Below, piece by piece: positions 9,258-40,865 of a stretch of DNA of 64,000 bases; the first letter of the stretch is position 1; each line of letters starts with the position of its first letter. The stretch covers positions 119,301-183,300 of the forward strand of contig WARW01000001.1 of assembly GCA_013387215.1 (NCBI GenBank), in the 5' to 3' direction. The notes under the pieces are model-generated. The model did no database searches and was not told the origin of the DNA. It saw only the letters and a program-made list of their open reading frames with translations. Origin of the DNA: Patescibacteria group bacterium. Its GTDB lineage: Bacteria; Patescibacteriota; Microgenomatia; UBA12405. A program made the translations under genes and the position numbers.

Positions 9258-9324
9258 AGTGGGTATGCATGTCCCTAGATCCCCCTTGAGGGGAGATTCG
9301 AACCATTACCAGGCACTTGATTAG
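9258..9324 (-). other. tRNA 3'-half relic with duplicated tRNA-Ile 3' end
   Basis: Immediately 3' of tRNA-Ile, 14 nt of its 3' end (CATGCATACCCACT) recur after a 53-nt insert. The insert contains a T-loop-like GGTTCGAATC and a CCCCTCAAGGGGG hairpin. Confidence 0.35.
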
Positions 9325-9398
9325 TGGGTATGCATGGATTCGAACCATGGACCCCCGACTTATAAGATCGGTGCTCTAACCAACTGAGCTACATACCC
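9325..9398 (-). tRNA. tRNA-Ile with anticodon UAU (unusual in bacteria)
   Basis: Reverse complement folds as GGGTATG-TA-GCTC-AGTTGGTTA-GAGC-A-CCGAT-CTTATAA-GTCGG-GGGTC-CATGG-TTCGAAT-CCATG-CATACCC-A. Anticodon positions 34-36 read TAT. The 5' half closely resembles tRNA-Ile. No CCA encoded. Confidence 0.65.
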
Positions 9399-21523: not shown

Positions 21524-21599
21524 TCCCCTGTAGCTCAGTCGGTAGAGCGTCCGCCTGTTAAGCGGCAGGTCCTTGGTTCGAGTCCAAGCGGGGGAGCCA
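21524..21599 (+). tRNA. tRNA-Asn (anticodon GTT), CCA encoded
   Basis: TCCCCTG-TA-GCTC-AGTCGGTA-GAGC-G-TCCGC-CTGTTAA-GCGGC-AGGTC-CTTGG-TTCGAGT-CCAAG-CGGGGGA-G-CCA. Closely resembles canonical bacterial tRNA-Asn. Confidence 0.85.
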
Positions 21600-23177
21600 T
21601 ACTGGATTTGCAGGTCGCAAATCATCATTTTTCTCCATAATATCCGTATACTTTTGAGGTTCTAGCCAACCTTTATATTTTTCACTCCAATTTTGTTTAT
21701 CAGCCAATATTCCATATTCAGGTTTTAGCTTAACATCCACTAATTTATCAGTATTGAAGATGAGGTTCGCGCCAATAGTCATAAGAATCATTTGTTTATC
21801 AGCTCTAGAACCACTATTAAATTTGTATTGGCAAACTCTGGCAAATTCAATAGTATTTTCAACCTTGGTTCTCCAATCATCTAAGTCGTCAGTTGTACTA
21901 TCTAATTTGACCTTAATTTCATTTTTTTTAGCTTCAAGAATTTGTTTTTTCTCTTTGTAAGTTAGGTCATCAATAGTTTCATCCAGTTTCATGTCTAAAA
22001 GCTTATTCAATCGTCTTTCTATATTAGATAATTCTGTTTGTTGAGATTTAAGTTTTTCTTCTTTAAAACCAGATTCATCTTTATGAATGACAGAAAGCCA
22101 TTTGTTTGACCAATTAATGAAATCTTGGTCAGGAGTAAGTTTTATTAACAATGTGTCTAACTGTTTTAAAACATCTGCTTCGGTCAATGGTTTTGAATCA
22201 CACTTAATCTTTTTATTTTTCTTAGTGCAGTGGTAATAAGTGTAAGTAACAATTCGCCCAGTTCCTAAATAATGTTTAGTTTTTTGAGAAGCTGTTATTG
22301 CAGAACCGCATTTTTGACAACGAAATAACCCTGTTAAGTCAAAAGTATGGGTATGAGCAACTGGTTTACCAAATTTACCCAAAGCTTTCTGAACAATATC
22401 AAACTGTTCTCTGGTAATCATTGGTTCATGATGCCCATTAAACCAATTACCTGAACCTTGTGGATACTCAAATTCACCATAATAAAAAGGTTTATTAAGA
22501 ATATTGTAAAAAGTTGACCTTGAAAAAATTTGACCATGTTGGTTAGTTAATTTCCAAATCTCCGAAGCTTCTTTATAAACTTCAATTGCTTGTTTTCCTT
22601 TAATAACTTCCAAAAATAGTCTTTTAACCAAATCAAACCTTTCTTCGTCCTTAACAATTACTTTAAATCCTTTCTTTCTGTCTGGAGTATTCTTGTAACC
22701 CAACGGGGAAGATGATGGCATCCAGCCCATACCAGCTTTTGTACCCATTCCTCTTTTTGCATTTATTCCACGATTATCATTTTCTAATTTTGCCTGTCCA
22801 CATAAAATATTAAATAAAAATTTATCATTTGGATTGTTTCTAAAAACTTGGGTAGGAGTAATTATTTCGTCTAAAACATTTCTATCCATCATATAAATTA
22901 TTTGACCAGAATCTACTGAATTTCTGGATAGTCTGTCTGGATTCCATACAAGTATTTTTTTAACTTGTTGAGATTCCATATCTTTTAGTAATTGATTAAA
23001 AATTGGTCTTCCTGGCTTTTTGGCAGATTGTGATTCTTCATAATATGGAGTAACTAATTCAAGACCATCTCTTTTAGCTAATTTTTCTAAAGCTTCAATT
23101 TGAGAAGGGATAGAAAGAGCTTGTCTTTCTTCATCTTCTTGTGATTTTCTACAGTAAACAAAAACTTGGTTTTTCAT
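21558..23177 (-). CDS. large serine recombinase (resolvase/invertase N-terminal domain, recombinase and zinc-ribbon domains)
   Basis: N-terminus MKNQVFVYCRKSQEDEERQ...LSIPSQ (catalytic Ser region YxRxS), a long recombinase domain and a Cys-rich zinc ribbon (CQKCGS...YYHC). The last 14 codons (WLPRLDSNQGPAA) are encoded antisense to the tRNA-Asn 3' half; the stop codon lies in the anticodon loop. Start placed at the second Met. Confidence 0.8.
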   Translation of the reverse strand: MKNQVFVYCRKSQEDEERQALSIPSQIEALEKLAKRDGLELVTPYYEESQSAKKPGRPIFNQLLKDMESQQVKKILVWNPDRLSRNSVDSGQIIYMMDRNVLDEIITPTQVFRNNPNDKFLFNILCGQAKLENDNRGINAKRGMGTKAGMGWMPSSSPLGYKNTPDRKKGFKVIVKDEERFDLVKRLFLEVIKGKQAIEVYKEASEIWKLTNQHGQIFSRSTFYNILNKPFYYGEFEYPQGSGNWFNGHHEPMITREQFDIVQKALGKFGKPVAHTHTFDLTGLFRCQKCGSAITASQKTKHYLGTGRIVTYTYYHCTKKNKKIKCDSKPLTEADVLKQLDTLLIKLTPDQDFINWSNKWLSVIHKDESGFKEEKLKSQQTELSNIERRLNKLLDMKLDETIDDLTYKEKKQILEAKKNEIKVKLDSTTDDLDDWRTKVENTIEFARVCQYKFNSGSRADKQMILMTIGANLIFNTDKLVDVKLKPEYGILADKQNWSEKYKGWLEPQKYTDIMEKNDDLRPANPVWLPRLDSNQGPAA

Positions 23178-23459
23178 AAAATAAATTAAAAAATAAAAAT
23201 ACCCTCGCTGGTGCAACCAGAACTTATACAGCTCTGTCCAACGAGGGTATTTCTAAGTTGTATAAATTGTTCTGGTTGCATAATAATTATACTATTTTTG
23301 AATCATAAATTCACTATTTTTCTCCTAATAAACCAATAATATTAAATAGTTATTAAAGTAATAGTTACATTAATAAAATTAACCTTATAAGTAATAAATT
23401 ATTATTAATTTATTAAAGTAAAAGTTACTCTATAGTTAGAGTTACTATATACATAGTTA

Positions 23460-26044: not shown

Positions 26045-26163
26045 ATTTATGTTTATGTAACCATTTTTACTATTAACTGGTGGTTAATGAAATATACCAT
26101 TATTCTGGTTCAAATCATAACCAGTGGTTAATAAACTTATATTGGATAGATTGGTAACTTTGT

Positions 26164-26385
26164 TTGATGGAAGACAGAAAAATTACCAAGAAAGATTTAC
26201 TTTTCGGAAAGAGGCTTCAGCGAGCAAGGAAAAGCGCTGGGTTTACACAGGAGAAATTGGCTGACAAAATTAGAATGAGCACTACATTTATTGGCTTAGT
26301 TGAGACGGGAAAAAGAAGACCAAGTATGAAGACATTACAAAAAATTGCTTCTGCTTTGAATGTAAACATTAGAGAACTGTTTTGA
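26164..26385 (+). CDS. XRE-family HTH transcriptional regulator
   Basis: Classic HTH_3: LRKSAGFTQEKLADKIRMSTTFIGLVETGKRRPSMKTLQKIASALNV. Confidence 0.7.
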   Translation: MMEDRKITKKDLLFGKRLQRARKSAGFTQEKLADKIRMSTTFIGLVETGKRRPSMKTLQKIASALNVNIRELF

Positions 26386-26406
26386 GTAAATAGTAGACAA
26401 GTTTGA

Positions 26407-26766
26407 TTGGTATTCATATTAACAATTTATTATCCACAGGTTTATAATGTGGTAAGGATAAATACAAATATGAAGTACATTTGCGTTATTTCTGCTTTAT
26501 TACTTCTAATAGCTATTCCAAATTGGCTACCATATGATTTTTATGTTCTGTTAAGGTGGATTATTTTTATCTCTTCAATTTACACTTCATACTTTTTTTA
26601 TAAGTCAAAGCAAAAAGGTTGGATTTTCGTTTTTATTGCCATAGCATTTTTATTCAACCCCATAATTCCTGTTTATCTAAATAAGTCCGACTGGATTCCA
26701 ATTGACCTAATTAGTCTAGTTTTATTCTCAATCGCAGCATTTTCAAATAAAAATGAAATTAAATAA
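26407..26766 (+). CDS. small polytopic membrane protein (first gene of the zinc-ribbon membrane operon)
   Basis: Three to four TM helices; overlaps the next gene by 14 nt. Confidence 0.4.
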   Translation: MVFILTIYYPQVYNVVRINTNMKYICVISALLLLIAIPNWLPYDFYVLLRWIIFISSIYTSYFFYKSKQKGWIFVFIAIAFLFNPIIPVYLNKSDWIPIDLISLVLFSIAAFSNKNEIK

Positions 26767-27472
26767 ATTTTATCCAACAGTAATTAATTTCGGCGCAAAT
26801 ACAATTTATATTTTTTCATTCTTAATTCTTATACTTAATTTTTTTTCAGGAATTGTAGGAGGATTATGGTTGTTATTTTCTGGCGGTTGGGGATTAATTG
26901 TATCTGGCATTGTAATGTCAATTTTTATGCCATATGGATGGTCTATTGCATTTTTACTTCAATTAATACTTGCTCCATTTTTAACAAAAGCAGCTGAAAA
27001 GGGCAGTAAATTTTGGGTGGCGATATTAGGTTTTATAGCTAATTTTTATGGTAATTTTTTAATTATTTTATGGACATATTTTGCGTTTAATTTTTTTATG
27101 GATTACCGAACAGAATATGCTCTTCTCCCATTGCTCTTGCTGGGTTATTCGGTCGCATTAGGTCCTCTTCAGTACATGGCAAAGAAAGAAGGTCCTGATA
27201 GTAGTGGTTCATTTTTAGGTGTTTTTCTTGCCCAACTGGGGTACATAGTTTTATCAATAGTCACATTAGCTGGTGGTGTTCCTAATTTTACTATACTTGT
27301 TTTAATTGCCCTTAGTTTTTCATTAATAATTGCAATAATAACTGCGACATCAATAAAACCATCTGTTTCAATGGTGGTAGAGGAGTCGTATTTAGTTGAT
27401 AATTGCCCTAATTGTGGCTTTAGTAAAAATGAGGGAGATTCTTTTTGTACTAATTGTGGTTATAAATTATAA
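26753..27472 (+). CDS. polytopic membrane protein with C-terminal zinc ribbon
   Basis: Six TM helices, then C-terminal CPNCGFSKNEGDSFCTNCGYKL (C-x2-C...C-x2-C). Confidence 0.45.
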   Translation: MKLNKFYPTVINFGANTIYIFSFLILILNFFSGIVGGLWLLFSGGWGLIVSGIVMSIFMPYGWSIAFLLQLILAPFLTKAAEKGSKFWVAILGFIANFYGNFLIILWTYFAFNFFMDYRTEYALLPLLLLGYSVALGPLQYMAKKEGPDSSGSFLGVFLAQLGYIVLSIVTLAGGVPNFTILVLIALSFSLIIAIITATSIKPSVSMVVEESYLVDNCPNCGFSKNEGDSFCTNCGYKL

Positions 27473-27478
27473 AAAAAT

Positions 27479-27985
27479 ATGAAATGCAATAAATGTAAAA
27501 AAAATAATCCAGAGGGTAGTAAATTCTGCTCATCCTGTGGTGCAAATTTGTCCGAAAAAACATCATTTGAACATCAAGAATTGATGGATAAAATTATAGA
27601 CCATCTGGAATTTATTGGATATGAAATTGATAAACCTATTGAATTAGAAGACGGAAAACATATGCAGGTTATTGCTATCAATAAAAACAGGTCAAACCTA
27701 ATAATCACCTTTAATGCCAGTGGTTTGGTTACATTTGTGTCTAATTATTCTATCAACCAGGATAAAGTAACCAAAAAGTGGCTAGATGCGTTAGAGTGTG
27801 TAAATAAGATGAACCTCGTCGCTTCAGTGTGTACTTATTGTTTTAATGAAAGTAAAGATGCGCTAGTCTGTTGTTCCTGGTATCCAAGTGAATATTCCAA
27901 GAAGACATTTTCTTTCTTTTTAGACATCTATGAGGCAGATATTAAAGCTAGATTTAATTCTAGTGGAATTATGGATTTTGCTTAA
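27479..27985 (+). CDS. zinc-ribbon protein with YbjN-like (putative sensory transduction regulator) domain
   Basis: N-terminal CNKCKKNNPEGSKFCSSCG zinc ribbon, then a ~130-aa alpha/beta domain whose pattern resembles YbjN/T3SS-chaperone-like folds; weak. Confidence 0.35.
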   Translation: MKCNKCKKNNPEGSKFCSSCGANLSEKTSFEHQELMDKIIDHLEFIGYEIDKPIELEDGKHMQVIAINKNRSNLIITFNASGLVTFVSNYSINQDKVTKKWLDALECVNKMNLVASVCTYCFNESKDALVCCSWYPSEYSKKTFSFFLDIYEADIKARFNSSGIMDFA

Positions 27986-27988
27986 AAT

Positions 27989-28750
27989 ATGTCTGAAAAT
28001 AAAGTTGAAACATGGATGTTTAAGGAAAAGGGAGAAGACTTAAATTTATTTTTTTCTATAGTTTTAACTATTATTTTGGGTATATTTTTTGCAAATGTAA
28101 ATTTCTGGCTTACGATTGGTCTTGCATTTATCGGAATTATTTATATAAAACTTCAACAAGCTCAATTAATTGGTAGTGCGTTAGAAATTTCAGAAAACCA
28201 GTTTTCAGAAATTTACCAAATTTTCAGTGAGTATAAAAATAGACTTGGTATCAAACACGCTAGATTATTTATTGTTCAAGACCCGAATCCAAATGGTTTT
28301 ACTATTGGCTTTCCTAAGGCATCAATTGTTTTGACATCATCGCTGGTTGAAGGTTTGAATTTAGATGAATTAAGTTTTGTGATTGGTCATGAGCTAGGAC
28401 ATATTAAAGCCAGGCACAATTTTATACTTACATTCATCAGCCCTTTTGGCTCAAATATTCCCGCTGCAACATACTTATTTTCTTTTTGGCAGAGAAAAGC
28501 AGAATACACTTGTGACAAATGCAGCTTAATACTGAATAAAAAAATTGAACCAGCCATTGATACATTAATGAAAATCAGTATTGGAATGAAATTAATAAAA
28601 AAAGTGAATCTTGATGCATACAAAGAGCAGTTGGTTGGTTCAGAGAGTGGTATAACCAAAACGAGTGAATTGTTGTTTGACCATCCATTAACAACAAACA
28701 GAATTAAAAAAATGGTGGCATTTTGGAGAAATAATTTTATAATTAAATAA
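27989..28750 (+). CDS. membrane-embedded zinc metallopeptidase (M48/M56-like, HExxH)
   Basis: Two N-terminal TM helices followed by VIGHELGHIKARHN (HExxH) with a downstream Glu-containing helix. Confidence 0.5.
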   Translation: MSENKVETWMFKEKGEDLNLFFSIVLTIILGIFFANVNFWLTIGLAFIGIIYIKLQQAQLIGSALEISENQFSEIYQIFSEYKNRLGIKHARLFIVQDPNPNGFTIGFPKASIVLTSSLVEGLNLDELSFVIGHELGHIKARHNFILTFISPFGSNIPAATYLFSFWQRKAEYTCDKCSLILNKKIEPAIDTLMKISIGMKLIKKVNLDAYKEQLVGSESGITKTSELLFDHPLTTNRIKKMVAFWRNNFIIK

Positions 28751-28752
28751 AT

Positions 28753-29484
28753 ATGTTGTGCAAAAAATGTGGACAAAACAACGAAAATGATGGTAAGTTT
28801 TGTATTAAGTGTGGATTTGTATTAAAACCGAGTGGAAAAAAGAGAGTTGAAGATGTTCTCTTCATTCCACAAAAAGAATCTAAAAAACATAAAACGAATT
28901 GGTTTCTGATTATTTTTTCAGTCTTTGTCATAGGAATAGTTTTTATTGCCTTAGTTGCTGCAAGTGGAAACAATTCAACAACTAACAGTAATTCATCAAT
29001 TAATTCAGAAACAAAAAATGGTGAATGGCAACCATTTTCTTCTGCTGAACATGGATTTAGTATTGATTTTCCAGGGTATCCATCAACCGAAAGGGAGCCA
29101 AAGACTACATTGGAGAATGGTTATAGTTATTCTTCCACACAGTATTCATCTCAAGACAAAGATGGAGTTGATTATCTGGCATTAAGTGGAGATTATGATA
29201 TACCTCCAGAAGATTACGATAATATTACTGGACTAGAAGGAATGATTAATTATATGAATAAGCCAGGAGAGATAATAATAAGTGATACAAAACTGACAAC
29301 AATTAAGGGTTACGATGCGATTACTTTTTCCTTTAATAGTATTAAAGAAAAATACATCGGTAAAGGTATAGGGATAATTCGTGACGATTTACAATACATA
29401 AAATCATTTATTTTTATGGTTGGGTCACCAACGGGTAATATTCCAAATTACCAAAAGTTTATTAATTCATTGGAGTTTAAATAA
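28753..29484 (+). CDS. zinc-ribbon, single TM helix, extracytoplasmic domain protein
   Basis: CKKCGQNNENDGKFCIKCG zinc ribbon, one TM helix, then a Ser/Asn-rich linker and a ~170-aa outside domain. Confidence 0.45.
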   Translation: MLCKKCGQNNENDGKFCIKCGFVLKPSGKKRVEDVLFIPQKESKKHKTNWFLIIFSVFVIGIVFIALVAASGNNSTTNSNSSINSETKNGEWQPFSSAEHGFSIDFPGYPSTEREPKTTLENGYSYSSTQYSSQDKDGVDYLALSGDYDIPPEDYDNITGLEGMINYMNKPGEIIISDTKLTTIKGYDAITFSFNSIKEKYIGKGIGIIRDDLQYIKSFIFMVGSPTGNIPNYQKFINSLEFK

Positions 29485-30302
29485 TGTTTTGCAATAAATG
29501 TGGTAAAGAAATTAATCAAAATAGTAAATTTTGTAATTATTGTGGAAATAAAATTATTTTAAAAAAAGCTAATCAAAAATCTGAGATTGCGGAACAGACT
29601 CATGTTGAATCTGCTGAAGACTATATTTGGACTTGCGATTATTGTGGTAAGGAATTTGATTCTAAATCTGAATCGGATAGGCATGAAGAAACTTGTGAAA
29701 AAAATCCTAAAAATATTAAAGACGAATCAAAAAATATTTGTTCTAAGTGTGGAAGTGATAATAAAATTGAAGCAAAATTCTGCAAAAAATGTGGGAATGA
29801 AATGTTGGTAGAACAATATAATTATGCTGGTTTTTGGGTTAGATTAGGGGCATGGTTAATTGATTACGCTGGTGTTTTATTTTTTTCAGTAATTATTTAC
29901 ATTGTATTAGCGGTATTTGGATTTGAGTTAGGGGATATTGAGACTGGAGTAGACTATCTTCTTACATATGTTTATATGGTCTTATATTTCACATTTTTTA
30001 TCGCAACATGGTCAACTACTCCTGGTAAAAGAATTTATGGACTGAAAGTTGTTAATGAAGATGGAGGTAAAGTCAGTTGGTCAATGTCTTTTAAAAGAGC
30101 TTTATTGCAACCCCTTTCAACTTTTCTTTTTGGTGTTGGATATGCAGATATGAACAAAAACGGAAAAGAACAAGCTTGGCATGGTAGAAAAAGTCACACA
30201 ATTCTTACACAACAAGAAGGAGCTATTTATTTCTTTCCAATTGTATTATCAATACTAGGTTTTGTAATTTATGCTTGGGTGAGAAGTCTGTCATCAACAT
30301 AA
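29484..30302 (+). CDS. triple zinc-ribbon RDD-family membrane protein
   Basis: Three C-x2-C...C-x2-C ribbons (CNKCGK..CNYCG; CDYCGK..H..C; CSKCGS..CKKCG). An RDD-family TM domain follows (RLGAWLIDYAGVLFF...TPGKRIYGLKVV). Confidence 0.5.
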   Translation: MFCNKCGKEINQNSKFCNYCGNKIILKKANQKSEIAEQTHVESAEDYIWTCDYCGKEFDSKSESDRHEETCEKNPKNIKDESKNICSKCGSDNKIEAKFCKKCGNEMLVEQYNYAGFWVRLGAWLIDYAGVLFFSVIIYIVLAVFGFELGDIETGVDYLLTYVYMVLYFTFFIATWSTTPGKRIYGLKVVNEDGGKVSWSMSFKRALLQPLSTFLFGVGYADMNKNGKEQAWHGRKSHTILTQQEGAIYFFPIVLSILGFVIYAWVRSLSST

Positions 30303-30643: not shown

Positions 30644-31216
30644 ATGACAGTAGAAGAAATTGAAGAAATACTTGAAGCTGGAAAAGAGACCCAAAAGGTT
30701 GATTATAAAGAGTCGTGTCCTTGGGATGAATTTACATTTATTAAAGACTTTCTTGCGATGGCAAATAATCAAGATGGTGGAATGATTGTAATCGGAATGA
30801 AAGAAGATGGTCAAACATTTACGAGACAAGGAATAATACCAGAACACAAAACTACTTATAAGATTGATGTTATGAAAGATAAAGTTGGCAAGTACGCCGA
30901 CCCTTATGTTTTTTTTGATGTTGACTTTCCAAAAGACAAAAACGGTCTTGAATATGTCGTAATAACTATATCCCCATTTGATAAAGTACCAGTCATTTGT
31001 AAAAAAGATGGTAAAGAAAATTTTGTAACAATCGGAAGTATTTACCATCGCGGATTTAATAGGCGAGCTGAGAGTACAAGAGTTTCAAGTTATTTTGATA
31101 TGAGAGAAATTATTGAAAGAGCAACAGTTAAGATGATGCAACACTTTGAAAAATTAGATTTAAAACCATCAAAAACAATAGAGGATAAATTTAAATCAGA
31201 AAGAGGTGACCTATGA
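30644..31216 (+). CDS. AlbA_2 (Schlafen-like) domain protein
   Basis: ETQKVDYKESCPWDEFTFIKDFLAMANNQDGGMIVIGMKEDGQ matches the AlbA_2/Schlafen core (E..d.K.....i.AfaN..GG.i.iGv.d.g). Confidence 0.5.
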   Translation: MTVEEIEEILEAGKETQKVDYKESCPWDEFTFIKDFLAMANNQDGGMIVIGMKEDGQTFTRQGIIPEHKTTYKIDVMKDKVGKYADPYVFFDVDFPKDKNGLEYVVITISPFDKVPVICKKDGKENFVTIGSIYHRGFNRRAESTRVSSYFDMREIIERATVKMMQHFEKLDLKPSKTIEDKFKSERGDL

Positions 31217-31938
31217 CAAGTAATGAAATAATTGCCAAGATTAAAACTAGAGGATATTGGAGAATTGTTTTTGAACCATTAGAGTTTATACCTGATAAGT
31301 ATCCTATTTCAGACTGCAAGGAACTAGTCAATAAAAACAAAGTTAGTATGAGAGGTTGGGACTACCCTCATTATCCTGTTAGACAAGATGATGATTCAAA
31401 ACTTGAACCTGGGAATAACTATTGGCAAGGATGGATTGATTGGGAAAGATATAAAGAATTCTGGAGGTTTTATCAGAGCGGACAATTTGTTCACTATCTT
31501 GGTGTTCGTGAGGACTGGTCGGAAGACATCATTTTCAAAAATATGTGGGAGCAAGGCGATAGAACAATAAAACCAGGAGAGGCGCTCGGGGTAGTAAGTA
31601 CAACCTTTTTAATGACAGAAATTTTTCATTTTTTATCACGACTTATGATTGATGGGGTTTATCAAACAGGTGTAAAAGTCAAAATTTCGCTGATAAATAC
31701 AAGCAATAGACAACTTTTTATTGAGTCTTTTGATAGGGTGCCATTTACTTCACCAAGAACTACTGCAGGTTCAGAATTAAATTACGAAATCACCTTGTCA
31801 AAAGGTGATTTACTGACCGATATAAATAAAGCTGCCGAACAAGTAATTGTATTTTTCTATAAAAGATTTGGTTGGGACCCACCTAATATAGAAGTAATCA
31901 AATCAGACCAAGAAAAACTTGTAAGTGGAAGATTGTAA
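31213..31938 (+). CDS. hypothetical protein, translationally coupled to the AlbA_2 gene
   Basis: ATGA start/stop overlap with the upstream gene; no recognisable motif. Confidence 0.35.
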   Translation: MTSNEIIAKIKTRGYWRIVFEPLEFIPDKYPISDCKELVNKNKVSMRGWDYPHYPVRQDDDSKLEPGNNYWQGWIDWERYKEFWRFYQSGQFVHYLGVREDWSEDIIFKNMWEQGDRTIKPGEALGVVSTTFLMTEIFHFLSRLMIDGVYQTGVKVKISLINTSNRQLFIESFDRVPFTSPRTTAGSELNYEITLSKGDLLTDINKAAEQVIVFFYKRFGWDPPNIEVIKSDQEKLVSGRL

Positions 31939-33506: not shown

Positions 33507-35063
33507 TTAAAACCCACAAACAGCAGTCCTGATTGAATCTAGGACGGGGAGCAAGTTGCTTGTTAATATAAGTGATTTTTGTTTGATCAGCTCAGCCACT
33601 AAAGGAGAATATTCCACACTTACAATGTTTTTATTATCCACATTAATTCTATTGAAGAAAAAATTTAAATATCTTCTTTTAAGAAAAACGGGGGAGTTAG
33701 AATAAGTTTTTGGGATATTTCTTGTAATGGAGAGCACTTCTGAAAGCAAATCAAAATCAAATTCTCTATTCGTATCCAATTTAGCCAATTCAGTATTTAC
33801 ACAATAAATATCATTCTGAATAATCGGATTTTGTGCTTTATAGTCTTCAGGTTCAATAGTTTCATCAAGTAAACGTGCCAATAAAATCTCAGCCTTTTTA
33901 GTTAACTCATTCTTCCTTCTCATAAGTCTATTTCTTTCCTTATCCTCTTCCTTTTTTCGCTCTTTTAGATATCTCTTTATTTTTACGACTAAAGCATTTG
34001 TAAACGCTTTTGAAAATTTAATATTTTGGAAATAGTTTTCAACCTTTCCTTCTAATTCATTTACTTCAACGCTTGGAGCATCACACGGAAACCTTTTGGC
34101 GCAATGATATATGCCATATTTTCCATCCCATTTTGCAAACTTAACATTATCATAATGATATTCTGCGGTATATCTCTGACCGCAACGATCACAAAAAATA
34201 ACGCCTCTTAAAAGGAAATCGTATTTTCTTTCCCTTATAATAAAATTTCTATGTTTAGCAGCTACCTGTTGGCACAAATCGAATGTCCGTTTAGAAATCA
34301 AAGGAATATGTTTACCAAGTTTTTGCTGCCCTTTCCATTGCATTAGACCATAATAAAAAGGATTGGTTAGAATTTTATTCATTGTGGAATGTGCTAATGG
34401 TTTTCCAGTTCTTGTTCTTAACCCCTTTTTTGATAAAAAGCTAATAAGACGAAACAAACTATAATTACCAGTCGAATATTTTTTAAAAGCAAGTGTAATA
34501 AAAGGACTAATTTTCTTATCGATTACAACTATTCCTTTATTATTCTTCCTTTGATTTTTGTAACCTAAAGGTGCCCATCCAGGCCACCAACCTTCTTCCC
34601 ATTTTCGGTCTAACCCTCTTTTAGTTTTTCTACTCAGGTCTTCTGAATAAAATTGATTTATACCTGCCATAAATGTATCCAACATCTTTCCTTCTGGAGA
34701 TTCGTCAAGCATAGGCTGTACAACCGAGATTAGTCTTGTGCCCACCGCTTTTATTCTTTCTTTAATTAAAAAATGGTCTGTTGCATTACGAGCGAATCTA
34801 TCGGTGTTATATACAATTATTGCTGCAGGTTTTATTGTATCCACCTGCTCTAACATTTTTAGAAATTCAGGTCTGTTTGAAACCGTAGCACTTTGACCTT
34901 CATCAACAAACGTATTTAAAACATTGTAATGTTGCCTTTTAGCCTCTTTTAGACAAATATCTTTTTGAGCATCAATAGAGTACCCTTCTTTTGCTTGTTC
35001 TTCAGTAGAAACTCTACAATAAATAAAACAATTTAATTTATTATTATCGTTTTCCATATCCAT
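33507..35063 (-). CDS. large serine recombinase 2
   Basis: N-terminus FIYCRVSTEEQAKEGYSIDAQ (catalytic Ser), recombinase domain and zinc ribbon (CDRCGQ...YHC). C-terminal tail PVLDSIRTAVCGF is encoded antisense to the relic tRNA 3' half, parallel to recombinase 1. Confidence 0.8.
   Translation of the reverse strand: MDMENDNNKLNCFIYCRVSTEEQAKEGYSIDAQKDICLKEAKRQHYNVLNTFVDEGQSATVSNRPEFLKMLEQVDTIKPAAIIVYNTDRFARNATDHFLIKERIKAVGTRLISVVQPMLDESPEGKMLDTFMAGINQFYSEDLSRKTKRGLDRKWEEGWWPGWAPLGYKNQRKNNKGIVVIDKKISPFITLAFKKYSTGNYSLFRLISFLSKKGLRTRTGKPLAHSTMNKILTNPFYYGLMQWKGQQKLGKHIPLISKRTFDLCQQVAAKHRNFIIRERKYDFLLRGVIFCDRCGQRYTAEYHYDNVKFAKWDGKYGIYHCAKRFPCDAPSVEVNELEGKVENYFQNIKFSKAFTNALVVKIKRYLKERKKEEDKERNRLMRRKNELTKKAEILLARLLDETIEPEDYKAQNPIIQNDIYCVNTELAKLDTNREFDFDLLSEVLSITRNIPKTYSNSPVFLKRRYLNFFFNRINVDNKNIVSVEYSPLVAELIKQKSLILTSNLLPVLDSIRTAVCGF
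33513..33550 (+). other. degenerate copy of the tRNA-Asn 3' half (attR-like relic)
   Basis: CAGCAG-TCCTGATTGAATCTAGGACGGGGAGC aligns with tRNA-Asn positions ~39-73 (CGGCAGGTCCTTGGTTCGAGTCCAAGCGGGGGAGC). It has the same orientation as the tRNA and is overlapped antisense by the C-terminus of the second serine recombinase. Confidence 0.45.
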
Positions 35064-37820: not shown

Positions 37821-38558
37821 ATGAAGAAGATACGAAGAAGTAGCTTAAGAAGCCATAAGATAAAAAACAAAGAATTGGAATCTATATTTTCAGGATTAAA
37901 AATGAGCCAAGTTTACTGGCATAAAGATTTGCTTCCAGAATTTTTCTGGATAGAAGCACTTGTTAATTATTATGGAGAAGAGAGAGCAAATCATTATTAC
38001 AACGAATTTTTAGATTCTATTGAAAAGATATTTATTAATAATTCAAATATATATATTGGTATAGTAAGTGATTTTGGAGATATACCAGAAAAATATAGAA
38101 ATAAAATTGTAGAAAATAATAAATTATTAATTGAAGATGTAATTTACAAACCATTTGCGAATATTATAAAAATTTATCCAAATATTCCAATGAAATGGTT
38201 ATTGCAAGGTTTTGACTTATCAAAGATCGATGAACAAGATGGAATAAAACAAGTTGTTGAAGCTATTAAAAGACTGTATCCTGCAAAGGATAATCATTGT
38301 GGTTTTTGTAGGGCAATTCCACTTAATAGATATTTTAAACATAAAAAAATATTTCTAACGTCAAATTTAGCAGAAACAATAAAAGCAGTTGAACAATATC
38401 CATTGGGAGATAGATACAGGGTTGAAACTTTAGCAAGAAATATAATTAACCACGATATCTTAAATAAAATTAACTCTTGTATGATCTCTGATAAGTTACT
38501 TTGGTCAAAAGATTTTTGGTGTACTAATTATAAATTGACAAAATGTGATGAACAATGA
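37821..38558 (+). CDS. hypothetical protein (operon gene 2)
   Basis: Starts 3 nt after the upstream stop; no recognisable motif. Confidence 0.35.
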   Translation: MKKIRRSSLRSHKIKNKELESIFSGLKMSQVYWHKDLLPEFFWIEALVNYYGEERANHYYNEFLDSIEKIFINNSNIYIGIVSDFGDIPEKYRNKIVENNKLLIEDVIYKPFANIIKIYPNIPMKWLLQGFDLSKIDEQDGIKQVVEAIKRLYPAKDNHCGFCRAIPLNRYFKHKKIFLTSNLAETIKAVEQYPLGDRYRVETLARNIINHDILNKINSCMISDKLLWSKDFWCTNYKLTKCDEQ

Positions 38559-39355
38559 TTTCAAAAAAACAAAGAAGCTCTATAAATAAACTCAGACAAG
38601 CAACTAATCGCGGAAGAATAATGATTGATGATGTATTAGAGATCATCAGGAACCAAGTAGACAATCAACAAGTAAACATATATGAACCAGAAGAAAACGA
38701 AGTGATAAATGGATTATTTTTTAGAGTTCTACGTTTTTATCACTCTTATGTAATAAGTTTTCACTTTTGGGCAGAAGATATGCATAGAATAATTACAAGA
38801 ACCATTATTGAATCATTTATTTATCTTTCATATTTAATAAATACCAATAAAAAAGAAATCTACCTGGAATTTATTAAATATGGTATTGGTCAAGAAAAGT
38901 TATATAAACTCCAATTAGCAAAATTAATTGAAGAGAAAAAAATACAACCGTCAAGTGAAATAATAGATTATATAAATTCTGATAGTGATGAGGAAATTTG
39001 GGATGAATTAATATCAATAAAATTAAAAAATTTTGAGGACTTGAGAAAACTGTCAAATAAAATAAACGAAAGCGAACTTTACAGTATTAAATATCAACCC
39101 TATTCTGATGTCATACACGGACATTGGATGGCTTTAAAAAAATATTATCTAAAGAAATGTTCTAACCCAATGCATAGATTTCATTACATACCAAACTTTA
39201 TATTGCCAAACATTAATCCAATAGGTTTAGTTGAAATTACTAATCTCTTTTATCAATGCTATTTATTATGGATTAAGAAAAATAATTTTGAAAATAAAAT
39301 TGAGAAAGTAATTGATTCTTATCTAAATGATTTAAATCAAATATTCTCAATATAA
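38555..39355 (+). CDS. hypothetical protein (operon gene 3)
   Basis: ATGA overlap with the gene 2 stop; no recognisable motif. Confidence 0.35.
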   Translation: MISKKQRSSINKLRQATNRGRIMIDDVLEIIRNQVDNQQVNIYEPEENEVINGLFFRVLRFYHSYVISFHFWAEDMHRIITRTIIESFIYLSYLINTNKKEIYLEFIKYGIGQEKLYKLQLAKLIEEKKIQPSSEIIDYINSDSDEEIWDELISIKLKNFEDLRKLSNKINESELYSIKYQPYSDVIHGHWMALKKYYLKKCSNPMHRFHYIPNFILPNINPIGLVEITNLFYQCYLLWIKKNNFENKIEKVIDSYLNDLNQIFSI

Positions 39356-39461
39356 AATTAAATATCTACACTGAGTGTAAGACCAGTCGAACCAAAATTA
39401 TTTATAACATCAATTATTTTTTTAATCGATTCATTTATATTAAGACTTGGACTGGGGAGCA

Positions 39462-39650
39462 TTAGTTTAATAATGAGTCAAAATCATTTCTTTTAGTCTT
39501 ATAATTACTTTCATCAAAACTAAATTCTTTTAATATTTCACAGCCTTTGGTTTGGTAATATTTCTTTAGTCTCTCAACCTCAGCTGGGAATGATATTCCA
39601 GCCTCTTTTTGTTCGTCTGTACCAACCCGCGCAATTATTATTGATTTCAT
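39462..39650 (-). pseudogene. serine recombinase/resolvase N-terminal fragment with catalytic Ser replaced by Gly
   Basis: MKSIIIARVGTDEQ...LKKYYQTKGCEILKEFSFDESNYKTKRNDFDSLL aligns to the resolvase N-terminus (ARVSTdeQ ... G.sG....R.gl..LL) but stops after 62 aa; S to G at the catalytic position. Confidence 0.55.
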
Positions 39651-40865
39651 TTATTTCCCGGATTTAATGCGGTTGTCATCTTTACAAAGCATTTGACAGT
39701 TGGCATAATCTGTTTTACCGCCTAATCTCCAAGGTTTTATATGATCAGCTTCCATTTCACCATATTCAAAATGTGCATTACCACAAACAGCATTTTTAGC
39801 GACACAAATACCTTTTTGTTCATTGTATTTTTTAATCTTAGTTTTCTCGTCAAATGTACGTAAACTCAAAGTTCGTTCATCACCCGTTAAGACATACTCA
39901 TAGATGCCTCTTTTATTCTCTACTTCATCATCGTCAATCAATTCTATAATCCTCTTTTCCAAAGTTTCAGAATTTAAACTCTCATCTTTATGTTGGTTAT
40001 AAAACCTTCCCCATTCCAAACCTTTCATTAACTGTACGCGAACACTCGTTTGGTTAGGGAAAACTTTATTCGCCCAATCAACTACATTGCGATAGTAACC
40101 ACGAATCTCGTCAGCGTTCTCGGTGTTCTGGTGATCAGCCATATACTCCTCAATACCCTTATGACTATTGTCGTAATCATGACTAATCCAACGTAAGGCC
40201 GTTTCTAAAATTTTTTGCCTGTTTGCTTCGCCAGTAACAAGATTTTTACCAAGTTCAATTGCTGGCCCGCCGGTTTTACTAAAAAATCTTTTTGCATCCA
40301 TTAGCCATTTACCGGTATAGTTTGCATTGCGAATTTCTTGGGGTGTTTGTTCCAGACCAGCAATATTTATAACATTAAACCATGTTATTTTTTCATTTGG
40401 TGTGCCTTCACAAATATAAATTGACAATTCATAGTCTAAAAACTCATTTTGCTGATCGCGAGTTAAATTGCTAAACTTTTTAGGAGCACCTTCCCAGTTA
40501 ATTGAAAACTCACCGCTTAAATACTGACCTTGCTCACCAATTTCTGCCTTGGTAATATCGCCCACATACTGACAGATACTTATAGTGCGTTGTTGACCAT
40601 CTATTACTTCGTATTGATCATTGCCGATTTTTGCCCAGTACATCACATTGAGGGGAAAGCCATGTCGGACAGTTTCTATTACCAAATTTCGTTGTTTCTC
40701 ACCGTATACAAAGTTGCGCTGAAAAGCCGGACGAATGTTTAACTTACCACCGTAACCAACAACTGGTCCTTCTTGCTCACTTTCGTCGCAGTAACCTGCA
40801 ACTAAATCACGAACAGTTATTTTTGGTGCTCCATCCTCACGACCGGAGAGTTTAATTTGCATCAT
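39651..40865 (-). CDS. DUF262 (ParB-like) plus DUF1524 (His-Me finger/HNH) nuclease, GmrSD-like
   Basis: N-terminal VIDGQQRTISI (DGQQR motif of DUF262/GmrS). C-terminal ADHIKPWRLGGKTDYANCQMLCKDDNRIK (HNH-like DUF1524). Confidence 0.65.
   Translation of the reverse strand: MMQIKLSGREDGAPKITVRDLVAGYCDESEQEGPVVGYGGKLNIRPAFQRNFVYGEKQRNLVIETVRHGFPLNVMYWAKIGNDQYEVIDGQQRTISICQYVGDITKAEIGEQGQYLSGEFSINWEGAPKKFSNLTRDQQNEFLDYELSIYICEGTPNEKITWFNVINIAGLEQTPQEIRNANYTGKWLMDAKRFFSKTGGPAIELGKNLVTGEANRQKILETALRWISHDYDNSHKGIEEYMADHQNTENADEIRGYYRNVVDWANKVFPNQTSVRVQLMKGLEWGRFYNQHKDESLNSETLEKRIIELIDDDEVENKRGIYEYVLTGDERTLSLRTFDEKTKIKKYNEQKGICVAKNAVCGNAHFEYGEMEADHIKPWRLGGKTDYANCQMLCKDDNRIKSGK

What the first reader, a model, noticed from the sequence alone, without database searches (positions are those of the whole stretch)
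26164..30302. Operon of six membrane proteins dominated by zinc ribbons with an HExxH membrane peptidase, preceded by an XRE regulator
Six genes are densely packed with start-stop overlaps. The set includes a polytopic protein with a C-terminal zinc ribbon, a zinc ribbon fused to a YbjN-like domain, an M48/M56-like HExxH membrane peptidase, a zinc ribbon with TM helix and outside domain, and a triple zinc ribbon on an RDD-family membrane domain. Zinc ribbon on a TM helix is the architecture of anti-sigma factors and regulated-proteolysis sensors, and the BlaR1-like peptidase plus XRE repressor supports a signal-transduction role. The combination as a single island-borne operon is not a named system.
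Basis: inference. Interest (0 to 1): 0.55.

Follow-up and report, generated by a model that had tools for sequence, protein, structure and literature searches.

The report
Zinc-ribbon membrane protease cassette on mobile island
A tightly packed six-gene set is a real, recurrent cassette carried by integrative elements of uncultivated bacteria: membrane proteins sharing one small zinc-binding tag, a chaperone-like soluble partner and a membrane protease, with no named equivalent and an untested function.

Summary
In 16 of 18 non-redundant lineages, a zinc-ribbon-fused YbjN/T3SS-chaperone-like gene (G3) has neighbours that combine a zinc ribbon with TM helices. None of 24 lineages with ribbon-less G3 relatives does (p=9e-10). 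The membrane domains swap (RDD, DUF2569, DUF805, DUF4234, DUF6804) and so does the protease (M48, trypsin-like, M10), while the 22-residue cytoplasmic ribbon and G3 stay constant. G2's membrane domain is homologous to the anchor of an FtsK/SpoIIIE+gamma ATPase subgroup. The cassette sits beside serine or tyrosine recombinases and near defence genes. A 17-bp box occurs three times, once inside the cassette promoter, so local XRE control is plausible. However, XRE is not a conserved partner, no sigma factor is present and the peptidase is not BlaR1-like. My best reading is a ribbon-assembled membrane protease complex with an envelope-level conflict or protection role. The function is untested.

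The parts
26075..26091 (+). Operator-like box 1 (AACTGGTGGTTAATGAA) in the divergent intergenic region upstream of the XRE gene
   Evidence: three matches to AACCAGTGGTTAATAAA (<=3 mismatches) in the 64 kb window, 0.5 expected, and 0 of 100 shuffles reach three. The same box is present in L005.
26119..26135 (+). Operator-like box 2 (AACCAGTGGTTAATAAA), whose core TAACCA-G-TGGTTA is a perfect 13-nt palindrome
   Evidence: identical in L005.
26164..26385 (+). G0: 73-aa XRE/Cro-type HTH protein (HTH only); probable repressor or controller of the element and the cassette
   Evidence: Pfam HTH_3 5e-16. PADLOC 'Control_protein' 1e-13 and HTH_VI 5e-14. 79% identical in L005. dN/dS 0.07.
26419..26448 (+). 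Sigma-70-like promoter of the cassette (TTAACA-18 nt-TATAAT, 11 of 12 matches)
   Evidence: It lies between the XRE stop and the G1 ATG. An equivalent promoter with an embedded box is in L005. The number of promoter-like hits in the region is not above chance, so the site rests on its position and conservation.
26426..26442 (-). Operator-like box 3 (AACCTGTGGATAATAAA), inside the spacer of the cassette promoter
   Evidence: Conserved in L005 although the flanking intergenic sequence has diverged.
26470..26766 (+). G1: small 3-TM protein of family DUF6804 (the ORF is open from TTG 26407; probable start ATG 26470)
   Evidence: Pfam DUF6804 5.7e-22. Recurs next to G3-like genes in five ZnR-type loci and in L068, L079 and L085.
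26753..27472 (+). G2: polytopic membrane protein (about 6-7 helices) with a conserved YMAxKEGPDSSGS loop and a C-terminal cytoplasmic C4 Zn ribbon. Its TM domain is homologous to the membrane anchor of an FtsK/SpoIIIE+gamma ATPase subgroup.
27479..27985 (+). G3: soluble protein with an N-terminal C4 Zn ribbon and a YbjN/T3SS-chaperone-fold domain (signature HLEFIGYE); the signature gene of the cassette
   Evidence: 833 family members at E<=1e-3. Distant members hit Pfam YbjN above its cut-off.
27989..28750 (+). G4: 253-aa membrane M48 zinc metallopeptidase (HtpX-like layout with an N-terminal TM hairpin). HELGH 134-138, Glu172 and His232 are invariant.
   Evidence: Pfam M48 5.5e-22; HtpX models 1e-16 but far below their cut-offs. 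Alignment. 48% identical orthologue in the distant cassette L042.
28753..29484 (+). G5: N-terminal Zn ribbon, basic linker, one TM helix and a PsbP_2-like extracytoplasmic domain
   Evidence: PsbP_2 is matched by 5 of 12 family members (best 1.2e-5); the window copy scores 18.3 bits, below the cut-off.
29484..30302 (+). G6: cytoplasmic head of C4 ribbon, C2HC finger and C4 ribbon (aa 1-107) on an RDD-family membrane domain
   Evidence: Pfam RDD 1.7e-22 and Zn_Ribbon_1 1.6e-12. Alignment. The same head, 56% identical, is fused to a DUF2569 domain in L008-L011.

Best explanation
The six genes encode one membrane-associated assembly carried as cargo by a small integrative element.

Shown: five membrane proteins and one soluble protein are co-transcribed from a promoter that carries an XRE-type operator box. 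Four of the six carry the same 22-residue C4 zinc ribbon (C-x2-C-x10-C-x2-C, usually 'KFCxxCG') on the predicted cytoplasmic side. G3 joins that ribbon to a YbjN/T3SS-chaperone-fold domain. G4 is an M48 metalloprotease with an intact active site. The association of ribbon-fused G3 with ribbon-tagged membrane proteins, usually with a protease, recurs in many diverged lineages next to recombinases.

Inferred: the ribbon is a shared address that co-localises the subunits at the inner face of the membrane. G3 is the cytoplasmic adaptor or chaperone, docking first of all on G2, its most constant neighbour. The output is proteolysis, with the RDD protein G6 gating the M48 peptidase G4 in the way the RDD protein SppI gates the membrane protease SppA in Bacillus subtilis. 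The outward-facing and membrane parts are the variable, interchangeable modules.

Most likely biological role (inferred, weakest step): an envelope-level conflict or protection function that benefits the element's host, meaning exclusion of incoming DNA or phage, or protection against envelope-active agents. The element's own XRE keeps it under negative control.
For: - **Operon and domains:**
- **G3 fold:**. Distant G3 relatives hit Pfam YbjN above its cut-off.
- **Conserved neighbourhood:** the G3-G4-G5-G6 order is kept at 48-88% amino-acid identity in L001-L006 and L039, with different flanks.
- **Statistics:** 16 of 18 non-redundant ribbon-fused G3 genes have at least one ZnR+TM neighbour, against 0 of 24 ribbon-less relatives (Fisher p=9e-10). 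None of 98 genes more than five positions away is of this type.
- **Neighbour repertoire (76 proteins, 18 loci):** Zn_Ribbon_1 37, RDD 7, DUF6804 5, DUF2569 4, M48 4, trypsin 4, M10 1, DUF4234 2, DUF805 1.
- **Protease displacement:** M48 in the window, L001, L005, L006 and L042; ZnR-TM-trypsin in L008, L012 and L047; ZnR-TM-M10 in L036.
- **M48 and RDD together:** every M48-bearing cassette also has an RDD gene.
- **Precedent:** the RDD protein SppI forms a complex with the membrane protease SppA and inhibits it, and the two genes form a conserved operon (PMC7568657).
- **G2-G3 pairing independent of the ribbon:** a G2-type TM domain fused to an FtsK ATPase and gamma domain lies directly upstream of ribbon-less G3-like genes in six related loci.
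- **Mobile or conflict context:** serine recombinases beside the cassette in the window, L001, L005, L006, L012, L039 and L042; tyrosine integrases in L067 and L074. SMODS and TerB_N genes lie in L001. GmrSD and Schlafen/AlbA_2 genes lie in the same window island. The superinfection-exclusion lipoprotein family Ltp (4e-47) and nucleases lie in the related L082 operon. ThsB_TIR lies next to a G2 homologue.
- **Operators:**
Against: - No experiment exists on any member, and no physical interaction has been tested.
- PADLOC finds no known or candidate defence model for G1-G6.
- No relatives were found in IMG/VR, GenBank phages, plasmids or PHROGs, so the carriers are not recognisable phages.
- The swapped proteases act on different sides of the membrane: M48 at the cytoplasmic face, and trypsin and M10 outside. 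This is awkward for a single conserved substrate.
- Ribbons within a cassette are no more alike than ribbons between cassettes (0.33 against 0.33), so there is no co-evolution signal for ribbon-ribbon contacts.
- The window's G6 has Gly in place of the third RDD signature Asp (WHG against WHD in five orthologues).
- Defence-island association is guilt by association.
- Many of the loci are short metagenomic contigs.
Confidence: 0.4

Rival explanations
1. One reading: a transmembrane signalling device that works by regulated proteolysis. Zn-ribbon/TM proteins act like anti-sigma factors or sensors, the HExxH peptidase acts like BlaR1, and the XRE protein is the transcriptional output.
Against: No sigma factor, M50 site-2 protease or BlaI/MecI-type repressor was found in any of the 18 neighbourhoods. 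An XRE accompanies the cassette in only three lineages, once on the opposite strand. G4 has no sensor domain, and its M56 and BlaR1 scores are below the cut-offs (28.0 against 31; 28.8 against 400). The XRE is a 73-aa HTH with no domain to cleave. The protease family and its side of the membrane change between relatives.
Confidence: 0.1
2. A horizontally spread envelope maintenance module. It would be an HtpX-like quality-control protease with membrane cofactors that clears damaged or mis-inserted membrane proteins, and it would have no role in conflict.
For: G4's best named matches are HtpX models (1e-16), and its layout is HtpX-like. The SppA-SppI precedent is an envelope-stress (sigma-W) operon. 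Chaperone-fold G3 and an Hsp70-YbjN fusion among relatives fit protein handling.
Against: The HtpX scores are far below the equivalog cut-offs (59.5 against 355). The cassette is repeatedly element cargo next to recombinases rather than part of a core genome. Its composition is highly variable between close relatives (for example, the G2 slot is replaced in L005), which is unusual for housekeeping.
Confidence: 0.2
3. A remnant or accessory of the element's own DNA transfer apparatus. G2 would derive from the anchor of an FtsK/SpoIIIE (TraB/TcpA-like) DNA translocase, the small membrane proteins would act like 'spread' proteins, and the XRE would be a kor-like repressor of a kil-like function.
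For: The G2 TM domain is homologous to that of FtsK+gamma proteins. A G2 homologue has a C-terminal tail in place of the ribbon and no ATPase, and it occupies the same cargo slot of the same element type; I read the tail by eye as gamma-like, with no Pfam hit on record. The element is small and encodes a recombinase. An operator lies in the promoter.
Against: There is no ATPase, relaxase or gamma domain anywhere in the window cassette. A protease and PsbP-like or DUF4352 ectodomains are not expected of a transfer apparatus. The FtsK-type clusters themselves sit with Ltp and nucleases, which points to exclusion rather than transfer.
Confidence: 0.1
4. There is no functional unit: individually common small membrane genes happen to be adjacent and are conserved only because the loci are recent copies of one element.
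For: Each Pfam family (Zn_Ribbon_1, RDD, M48, DUF6804) is common on its own. Several loci are near-duplicates (L001-L004, L008-L011).
Against: After collapsing at 80% identity the association still holds (16 of 18 against 0 of 24, p=9e-10). It holds at 25-40% identity of G3, with shuffled gene order and different flanks. Synonymous sites are saturated while dN/dS is 0.07-0.17.
Confidence: 0.03

Closest known systems
SppA-SppI of Bacillus subtilis (membrane serine protease S49 with its RDD-family inhibitor; PMC7568657)
   Same: An RDD-family membrane protein is encoded in one operon with a membrane protease. The pairing is conserved, and it acts at the envelope (resistance to antimicrobial peptides).
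   Different: The protease here is M48, not S49. The RDD protein carries a cytoplasmic head of three zinc fingers. Four further components (G1, G2, G3, G5) have no counterpart. The cassette is on a mobile element. No complex has been demonstrated.
HtpX / M48 membrane metalloproteases
   Same: The Pfam M48 domain is above its cut-off. The HExxH motif and downstream Glu are intact. There is an N-terminal TM hairpin with further hydrophobic segments after the active site.
   Different: It scores far below all HtpX equivalog cut-offs. It is only 253 aa. It has an invariant CxxC next to the third zinc ligand. It is embedded in a multi-gene cassette.
BlaR1/MecR1-BlaI/MecI (M56 sensor-protease with a cleavable repressor)
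   Same: A membrane HExxH peptidase is encoded near a small repressor gene.
   Different: The M56 match is below the cut-off. There is no extracellular penicillin-binding sensor domain. The repressor is XRE (HTH_3), not a BlaI-type winged helix, and it is not conserved with the cassette.
YbjN family / type III secretion chaperones (SicP, CesT, ExsC, AmyR)
   Different: There is no T3SS. The domain is fused to a zinc ribbon. It is obligatorily linked to ribbon-tagged membrane proteins. The window protein itself gets no direct Pfam YbjN hit.
Repressor-adjacent superinfection-exclusion and defence cargo of prophages and ICEs (for example Ltp of phage TP-J34, lambda rexAB) and C-protein (controller) regulated modules
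   Same: Membrane-protein cargo is encoded directly downstream of a small XRE regulator on an integrative element. Palindromic boxes lie upstream of the regulator gene. An Ltp-family gene heads the related L082 operon.
   Different: There is no sequence relationship to any known exclusion or defence protein (PADLOC and PHROGs negative). No phage structural genes are present in the window element. The exclusion phenotype is untested.
Membrane-anchored FtsK/SpoIIIE DNA translocases (FtsK, SpoIIIE, TraB, TcpA)
   Same: The G2 membrane domain is homologous to the anchor of one FtsK+gamma subgroup that is also followed by a G3-like gene and DUF6804.
   Different: G2 has no ATPase and no gamma domain; a zinc ribbon takes their place.

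Membership tests
BlaR1/MecR1 (peptidase M56 signal transducers) | M56 peptidase domain scoring above the family threshold | tested here: not met
   Pfam M56 28.0 bits against a cut-off of 31; NCBIfam blaR1_generic 28.8 against 400.
BlaR1/MecR1 (peptidase M56 signal transducers) | C-terminal extracellular penicillin-binding/transpeptidase-like sensor domain | tested here: not met
   G4 ends at residue 253, directly after the peptidase domain, and no further domain was found.
BlaR1/MecR1 (peptidase M56 signal transducers) | Partner BlaI/MecI-type winged-helix repressor | tested here: not met
   The adjacent regulator is HTH_3/XRE. It is absent from most related cassettes.
Peptidase family M48 | M48 domain above the gathering score, with HExxH and a downstream Glu ligand | tested here: met
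   78.9 bits against 20.3. HELGH 134-138, E172 and H232 are invariant in five orthologues.
HtpX (equivalog) | Score above the NCBIfam HtpX equivalog cut-offs | tested here: not met
   Best score 59.5 bits against a cut-off of 355.
Anti-sigma factor / regulated intramembrane proteolysis cascades | Co-encoded ECF sigma factor and a site-2 (M50) protease | tested here: not met
   Neither is among the window cassette genes. Neither family is among the 25 (of 42) Pfam families listed for the 76 neighbours in 18 loci.
RDD family (PF06271) | RDD domain above the gathering score | tested here: met
   80.6 bits against 24.1.
RDD family (PF06271) | Conserved Arg-Asp-Asp signature residues | tested here: inconclusive
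   R119 and D126 are present. The 'WHD' Asp is Gly in the window copy but Asp in five orthologues.
SppA-SppI-type protease-inhibitor pair | RDD membrane protein co-encoded with a membrane protease | tested here: met
   G6 (RDD) and G4 (M48) are in one operon. M48 and RDD co-occur in the window, L001, L005, L006, L039 and L042.
SppA-SppI-type protease-inhibitor pair | The protease is SppA (S49), and the two proteins form an inhibitory complex | tested here: not met
   The protease is M48, not S49. Complex formation cannot be tested with these tools.
YbjN / T3SS-chaperone-like superfamily | Characteristic alpha-beta-beta-beta-alpha-beta-beta-alpha fold | tested here: met
YbjN / T3SS-chaperone-like superfamily | Direct match to Pfam YbjN (PF10722) | tested here: not met
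   The window protein has no hit at E<=0.1. Distant family members found with the G3 profile do hit it above the cut-off: P0063 at 28.9 bits and P0158 at 25.3 bits, against 22.
Known or candidate anti-phage defence systems (PADLOC-DB v2) | Match of the component proteins to a system model | tested here: not met
   G1-G5 have no hit. G6 has only a ribbon-level hit (PD-T4-6, 7e-4). The XRE hits generic HTH and controller models.
FtsK/SpoIIIE translocases | P-loop FtsK/SpoIIIE ATPase domain (and a gamma domain) | tested here: not met
   G2 has neither domain. Only its TM domain is homologous to the anchor of FtsK+gamma proteins.
DUF6804 (PF20619) | Domain above the gathering score | tested here: met
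   G1 scores 78.2 bits against 27.

The most novel reading that the evidence does not exclude
This would be a previously undescribed class of membrane-embedded conflict system carried by integrative elements of uncultivated bacteria; their taxonomy is unresolved, and the single taxonomic anchor is one Candidatus Saccharibacteria MAG. In this reading, a universal 22-residue cytoplasmic zinc ribbon has replaced the motor and DNA-reading (gamma) domains of an FtsK-type membrane translocase. The ribbon now recruits a YbjN-fold adaptor, interchangeable membrane or ectodomain modules and an interchangeable protease into one complex. That complex would intercept incoming DNA or phage at the envelope.
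Probability: 0.2. Interest if true: 0.8.

Novelty: new variant of a known kind. Interest (0 to 1): 0.6.

Why it matters
Zinc-ribbon/TM proteins and the RDD, DUF2569, DUF805, DUF4234 and DUF6804 membrane domains are among the commonest uncharacterised bacterial membrane proteins. This cassette gives them a concrete, testable context: a shared cytoplasmic ribbon, a dedicated chaperone-fold partner and a protease, all under one promoter.

The work extends the one experimental precedent for RDD proteins (SppI gating SppA) to another protease family. It also links the set by homology to an FtsK-type membrane anchor. If the conflict role is right, it would add an envelope-level system to the known repertoire of mobile elements in uncultivated bacteria, possibly candidate-phyla-radiation lineages, whose accessory genes are largely unstudied.

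Even if the role turns out to be envelope maintenance, the 'constant ribbon, variable membrane module' rule is a usable handle for annotating thousands of hypothetical proteins.

Tried and rejected
**Exact look-ups.** Look-ups of the window proteins G4 and G3 in the contig index found nothing, so the source genome was not identified.

**Taxonomy.** It rests on one anchor, L012, a Candidatus Saccharibacteria MAG. The GTDB scan was limited by its search patterns and otherwise returned only ribbon-level matches.

**Searches for the G3 family or cassette outside metagenomes.** There was no match in:
- IMG/VR
- GenBank phages
- PLSDB plasmids
- PHROGs

**Known defence systems.** PADLOC gave nothing for G1-G6.

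**Fold and structure searches.**
- afdb50 was unavailable.
- A PDB sequence search with the G5 profile matched only the ribbon (ArnA, L40e), and G4 gave no hit.

**Ribbon co-evolution.** I tested whether ribbons within a cassette are more alike than ribbons between cassettes, which would signal co-evolution. They are not: 0.329 against 0.330.

**Island boundaries.** A search for att-like direct repeats bounding the island found none that were convincing.

**Terminator.** No intrinsic terminator was found after G6.

**Alignment for the metagenome scan.** A broad 39-sequence alignment was too diverse to use, so a 17-sequence alignment was used instead.

**Literature.** Searches for 'YbjN + zinc ribbon', 'DUF6804', 'Patescibacteria + serine recombinase', 'zinc ribbon + superinfection exclusion' and 'FtsK gamma + anti-phage' found no description of this system.

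**Interpretations considered and rejected.**
- BlaR1-like sensor, because the membership features failed.
- ImmA/ImmR-type cleavage of the repressor, because the XRE is a bare HTH and the peptidase is M48, not M78.

Full report
**1. What is there**

The + strand between 26164 and 30302 carries a 73-aa XRE gene followed by six co-directional ORFs. The junctions are tight. G1/G2 overlap by 14 nt and G5/G6 by 1 nt. G2/G3, G3/G4 and G4/G5 are separated by 6, 3 and 2 nt. An 84-nt spacer between the XRE stop and the probable G1 start (ATG 26470) holds a near-consensus promoter, TTAACA-18-TATAAT, at 26419-26448.

Domain searches give the following:
- **XRE:** HTH_3, 5e-16.
- **G1:** DUF6804, 6e-22.
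- **G2:** a polytopic protein with a C-terminal C4 ribbon and no other family.
- **G3:** an N-terminal C4 ribbon followed by about 135 unassigned residues.
- **G4:** Peptidase_M48, 5.5e-22. M56 is matched only below its threshold.
- **G5:** ribbon, basic linker, one TM helix and an ectodomain with a sub-threshold PsbP_2 match. Five of 12 homologues match PsbP_2, best 1.2e-5.
- **G6:** a cytoplasmic head of ribbon, C2HC finger and ribbon, followed by an RDD membrane domain, 1.7e-22.

**2. Context in the window**

The cassette lies in a low-G+C stretch (27-31% against about 35%). That stretch begins at a tRNA-Asn gene whose 3' end is overlapped by a large serine recombinase gene (21558-23216). 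It also contains a second serine recombinase (33507-35063). Housekeeping genes (valS, dnaG, rpoD) lie immediately upstream. Downstream in the same stretch are a Schlafen/AlbA_2 protein (weak PADLOC PDC-S50 hit), a DUF5677 protein and a GmrSD-type DUF262-HNH enzyme. I found no att repeats.

**3. Regulation**

The 17-mer AACCAGTGGTTAATAAA, whose core TAACCA-G-TGGTTA is a perfect palindrome, occurs three times in the 64-kb window at up to 3 mismatches. The expectation is 0.5, and none of 100 shuffles reaches three. Two copies lie 44 nt apart in the divergent intergenic region upstream of the XRE gene. The third, inverted, lies in the spacer of the cassette promoter.

The diverged locus L005 (G3 68% identical) has all three boxes in the same places, although the surrounding intergenic DNA differs. 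This makes XRE binding and repression of the cassette promoter a reasonable inference for this element. It has not been shown. No terminator was detected between the XRE gene and G1 or after G6.

**4. Conservation elsewhere**

A word-indexed search found only seven clusters of close G3 relatives. Their contigs keep G3-G4-G5-G6 in order, mostly with DUF6804 and G2 upstream. Amino-acid identity is 48-88%, and the flanks differ between loci.

A profile search of 1.84 billion representatives found 833 family members. About 50 of the best hits have the ribbon+YbjN architecture, and the rest are stand-alone. One scan of GTDB species representatives found a single full-length relative, in a Candidatus Saccharibacteria MAG (L012). 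A metagenome scan gave 60 more loci.

I scored neighbours mechanically, using a ribbon regular expression and Kyte-Doolittle TM prediction, for genes on the same strand at positions -3 to +4:
- 29 of 31 ribbon-fused G3 genes have at least one ribbon+TM neighbour (mean 2.45).
- 0 of 39 ribbon-less relatives have one.
- 0 of 98 genes more than five positions away are of this type.
- After collapsing at 80% identity, the result is 16 of 18 against 0 of 24, Fisher p = 9e-10.

Pfam on 76 neighbours from 18 non-redundant loci gives Zn_Ribbon_1 37, RDD 7, DUF6804 5, DUF2569 4, Peptidase_M48 4, trypsin 4, M10 1, DUF4234 2, DUF805 1 and DUF4352 1. Orthologues of G1, G2, G4, G5 and G6 reappear in different combinations and orders around G3 genes that are only 25-40% identical to the window's.

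**5. What is constant and what varies**

Two things are constant:
- The soluble ribbon+YbjN protein.
- The same 22-residue ribbon (C-x2-C-x10-C-x2-C, 'KFCxxCG') on the partners. It is at the N-terminus of single-pass or small polytopic proteins and at the C-terminus of G2-type proteins.

Three things vary:
- **The membrane domain** (RDD, DUF2569, DUF805, DUF4234, others). The G6 three-finger head is 56% identical to the head of a DUF2569 protein in L008-L011.
- **The ectodomain** (PsbP-like, DUF4352/DUF5067, G5).
- **The protease.** It is a ribbon-less M48 in the window, L001, L005, L006 and L042. It is ribbon-TM-trypsin in L008, L012 and L047, and ribbon-TM-M10 in L036.

A protease motif is present in 10 of 18 lineages, although many contigs are truncated. 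Ribbons are not homogenised within cassettes.

**6. An unexpected relative**

G2 has no Pfam family and no informative structural neighbour. Its TM domain, including the YMAxKE..S.G loop, is homologous to the N-terminal anchor of 516-539-aa proteins that continue into an FtsK/SpoIIIE ATPase and an FtsK gamma domain. The support is hhalign probability 99.3% (E 5e-20) and BLASTP E 3e-13.

In six related loci that gene lies directly upstream of a ribbon-less G3-like gene, and DUF6804 often follows. In the longest of these loci (L082), the operon starts after an XRE that is 53% identical to G0. It contains an Ltp-family lipoprotein (4e-47; the family includes the TP-J34 superinfection-exclusion protein), a SHOCT protein, a T5orf172/MUG113-gamma protein and a GIY-YIG protein.

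One G2 homologue has a C-terminal tail in place of the ribbon. I read that tail by eye as gamma-like; no Pfam hit is on record for it. This homologue has no ATPase and sits, with only a 90-aa gene beside it, in the cargo slot of the same type of serine-recombinase element. Another G2 homologue is next to a ThsB-type TIR gene.

So the G2-G3 pairing does not depend on the ribbon. In the window's G2, a ribbon occupies the place of a DNA motor and DNA reader.

**7. Mobile-element linkage**

The cassette lies beside site-specific recombinase genes of two families:
- **Serine recombinases:** the window, L005, L001/L039, L006, L012 and L042.
- **Tyrosine integrases:** L067 and L074.

L001 also carries SMODS, TerB_N, ParB-methylase and a terminase-like gene. 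No relatives were found in IMG/VR, GenBank phages, plasmids or PHROGs.

**8. Mechanism**

*Shown:* the operon, the domain architectures, the intact M48 site, the fold of G3, the conserved guild, the recombinase linkage, and the repeated box inside the promoter.

*Inferred:*
- (a) The ribbons are cytoplasmic. They are Zn-binding, they are followed by basic linkers, and G2's C-terminus corresponds to the point where relatives continue into a cytoplasmic ATPase.
- (b) The ribbon is a shared address that brings G3 and the membrane proteins together. The basis is the all-or-none correlation in section 4.
- (c) G3 is an adaptor or chaperone that docks on G2.
- (d) Proteolysis is the output. The RDD protein gates the M48 peptidase, by analogy with SppI, the RDD protein that binds and inhibits the membrane protease SppA (PMC7568657). 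RDD is otherwise functionally unresolved: PMC12419801 notes a conserved intramembrane site facing the cytoplasm.
- (e) The role is envelope-level exclusion or protection for the element's host. The basis is the cargo position, the defence neighbours, the Ltp and nucleases in the related operon, and the pattern of a constant inside and a variable outside.

I put 0.4 on this package. Steps (b) to (d) are better supported than step (e).

**9. Rivals**

It has the XRE operator in its favour. It lacks a sigma factor, a site-2 protease, a sensor domain, a cleavable repressor and a conserved XRE partner.
- **A housekeeping HtpX-like quality-control module (0.2).** It fits G4 and the chaperone fold, but not the mobility and variability.
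- **A role in the element's own DNA transfer (0.1).** It fits the FtsK link, but not the absence of any ATPase or the presence of a protease and ectodomains.
- **A chance assemblage (0.03).** It is excluded.

**10. Novelty and limits**

I found no named system, PADLOC model or paper that describes this combination. The parts are known families, so I rate it a new variant of a known kind: mobile-element membrane cargo, or a protease-regulator membrane complex.

The limits are these:
- No experiment exists on any member.
- Host taxonomy rests on one MAG.
- Many loci are short metagenomic contigs.
- TM and ribbon calls in the survey are heuristic.
- Promoter and operator calls are matches to a consensus.
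- Complex formation could not be modelled with the tools available.

Noticed in passing
L076:1244-2797, L082:5430-6977, L096:5388-7004 (also L085, L088, L068): A subgroup of FtsK/SpoIIIE ATPase + FtsK-gamma proteins uses a G2-type polytopic membrane anchor. It is followed directly by a ribbon-less YbjN-like gene and often by DUF6804. In L082 the same operon holds an Ltp-family lipoprotein, a SHOCT protein, a T5orf172/MUG113-gamma fusion and a GIY-YIG protein. It looks like a distinct, undescribed membrane DNA-handling cluster.
   Followed up: partly
window 29484-30302 (G6 residue ~231): The window's RDD protein reads WHG where five orthologues (L005, L001, L006, L042, L067) read WHD. One of the three signature RDD acidic residues is therefore lost in this copy.
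   Followed up: partly
L008:3615-4418 versus window 29484-29804: The G6 head (C4 ribbon, C2HC finger, C4 ribbon; aa 1-107) is 56% identical to the head of a protein whose membrane body is DUF2569 instead of RDD. This is a clean case of head/body domain shuffling.
   Followed up: partly
L005:3912-5100 versus window 26753-27472: Between two otherwise close cassettes (G4 88% and G6 85% identical), the G2 slot is occupied in L005 by two unrelated genes (135 aa and 263 aa). The second shares only the C-terminal ribbon with G2.
   Followed up: no
window 9324-9398 (- strand): A tRNA-Ile with anticodon TAT lies next to two tRNA-Met(CAT)-type genes. A UAU-anticodon tRNA-Ile is uncommon in bacteria and may say something about the host lineage.
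   Followed up: no
window 21524-23216 and 33507-35063: There are two large serine recombinase genes in the same orientation, about 12 kb apart. The first overlaps the 3' end of tRNA-Asn. This suggests two integrative elements in tandem. No att repeats were found.
   Followed up: partly
window 30644-31938: A Schlafen/AlbA_2-domain protein (Pfam 1.9e-11; PADLOC PDC-S50 4e-8) overlaps by 4 nt with a 241-aa gene of no known family. It is a possible two-gene defence candidate directly downstream of the cassette.
   Followed up: no
window 38555-40865: A DUF5677 protein and a GmrSD-type (DUF262 N-terminal domain + HNH) putative type IV restriction enzyme lie at the far end of the low-G+C stretch.
   Followed up: no
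window 42853-44496 (- strand): A RecQ-family helicase has an N-terminal segment (aa 8-71) that matches the HNH region of IscB (NCBIfam guided_IscB, 1.2e-15). This is an unusual HNH-RecQ fusion.
   Followed up: no
window 56827-58875: A 682-aa internalin-like leucine-rich-repeat protein (NCBIfam internalin_A 8e-65, far below its cut-off). It may be a surface adhesin of the host organism.
   Followed up: no
window 26750-29500 (regions upstream of the G2-G5 starts): The 20 nt upstream of the G2-G5 start codons are A/T-rich with no Shine-Dalgarno-like GGAGG; G1 has only a weak AAGGA and G6 has a GGAG. This is consistent with translational coupling or SD-independent initiation in this organism.
   Followed up: no
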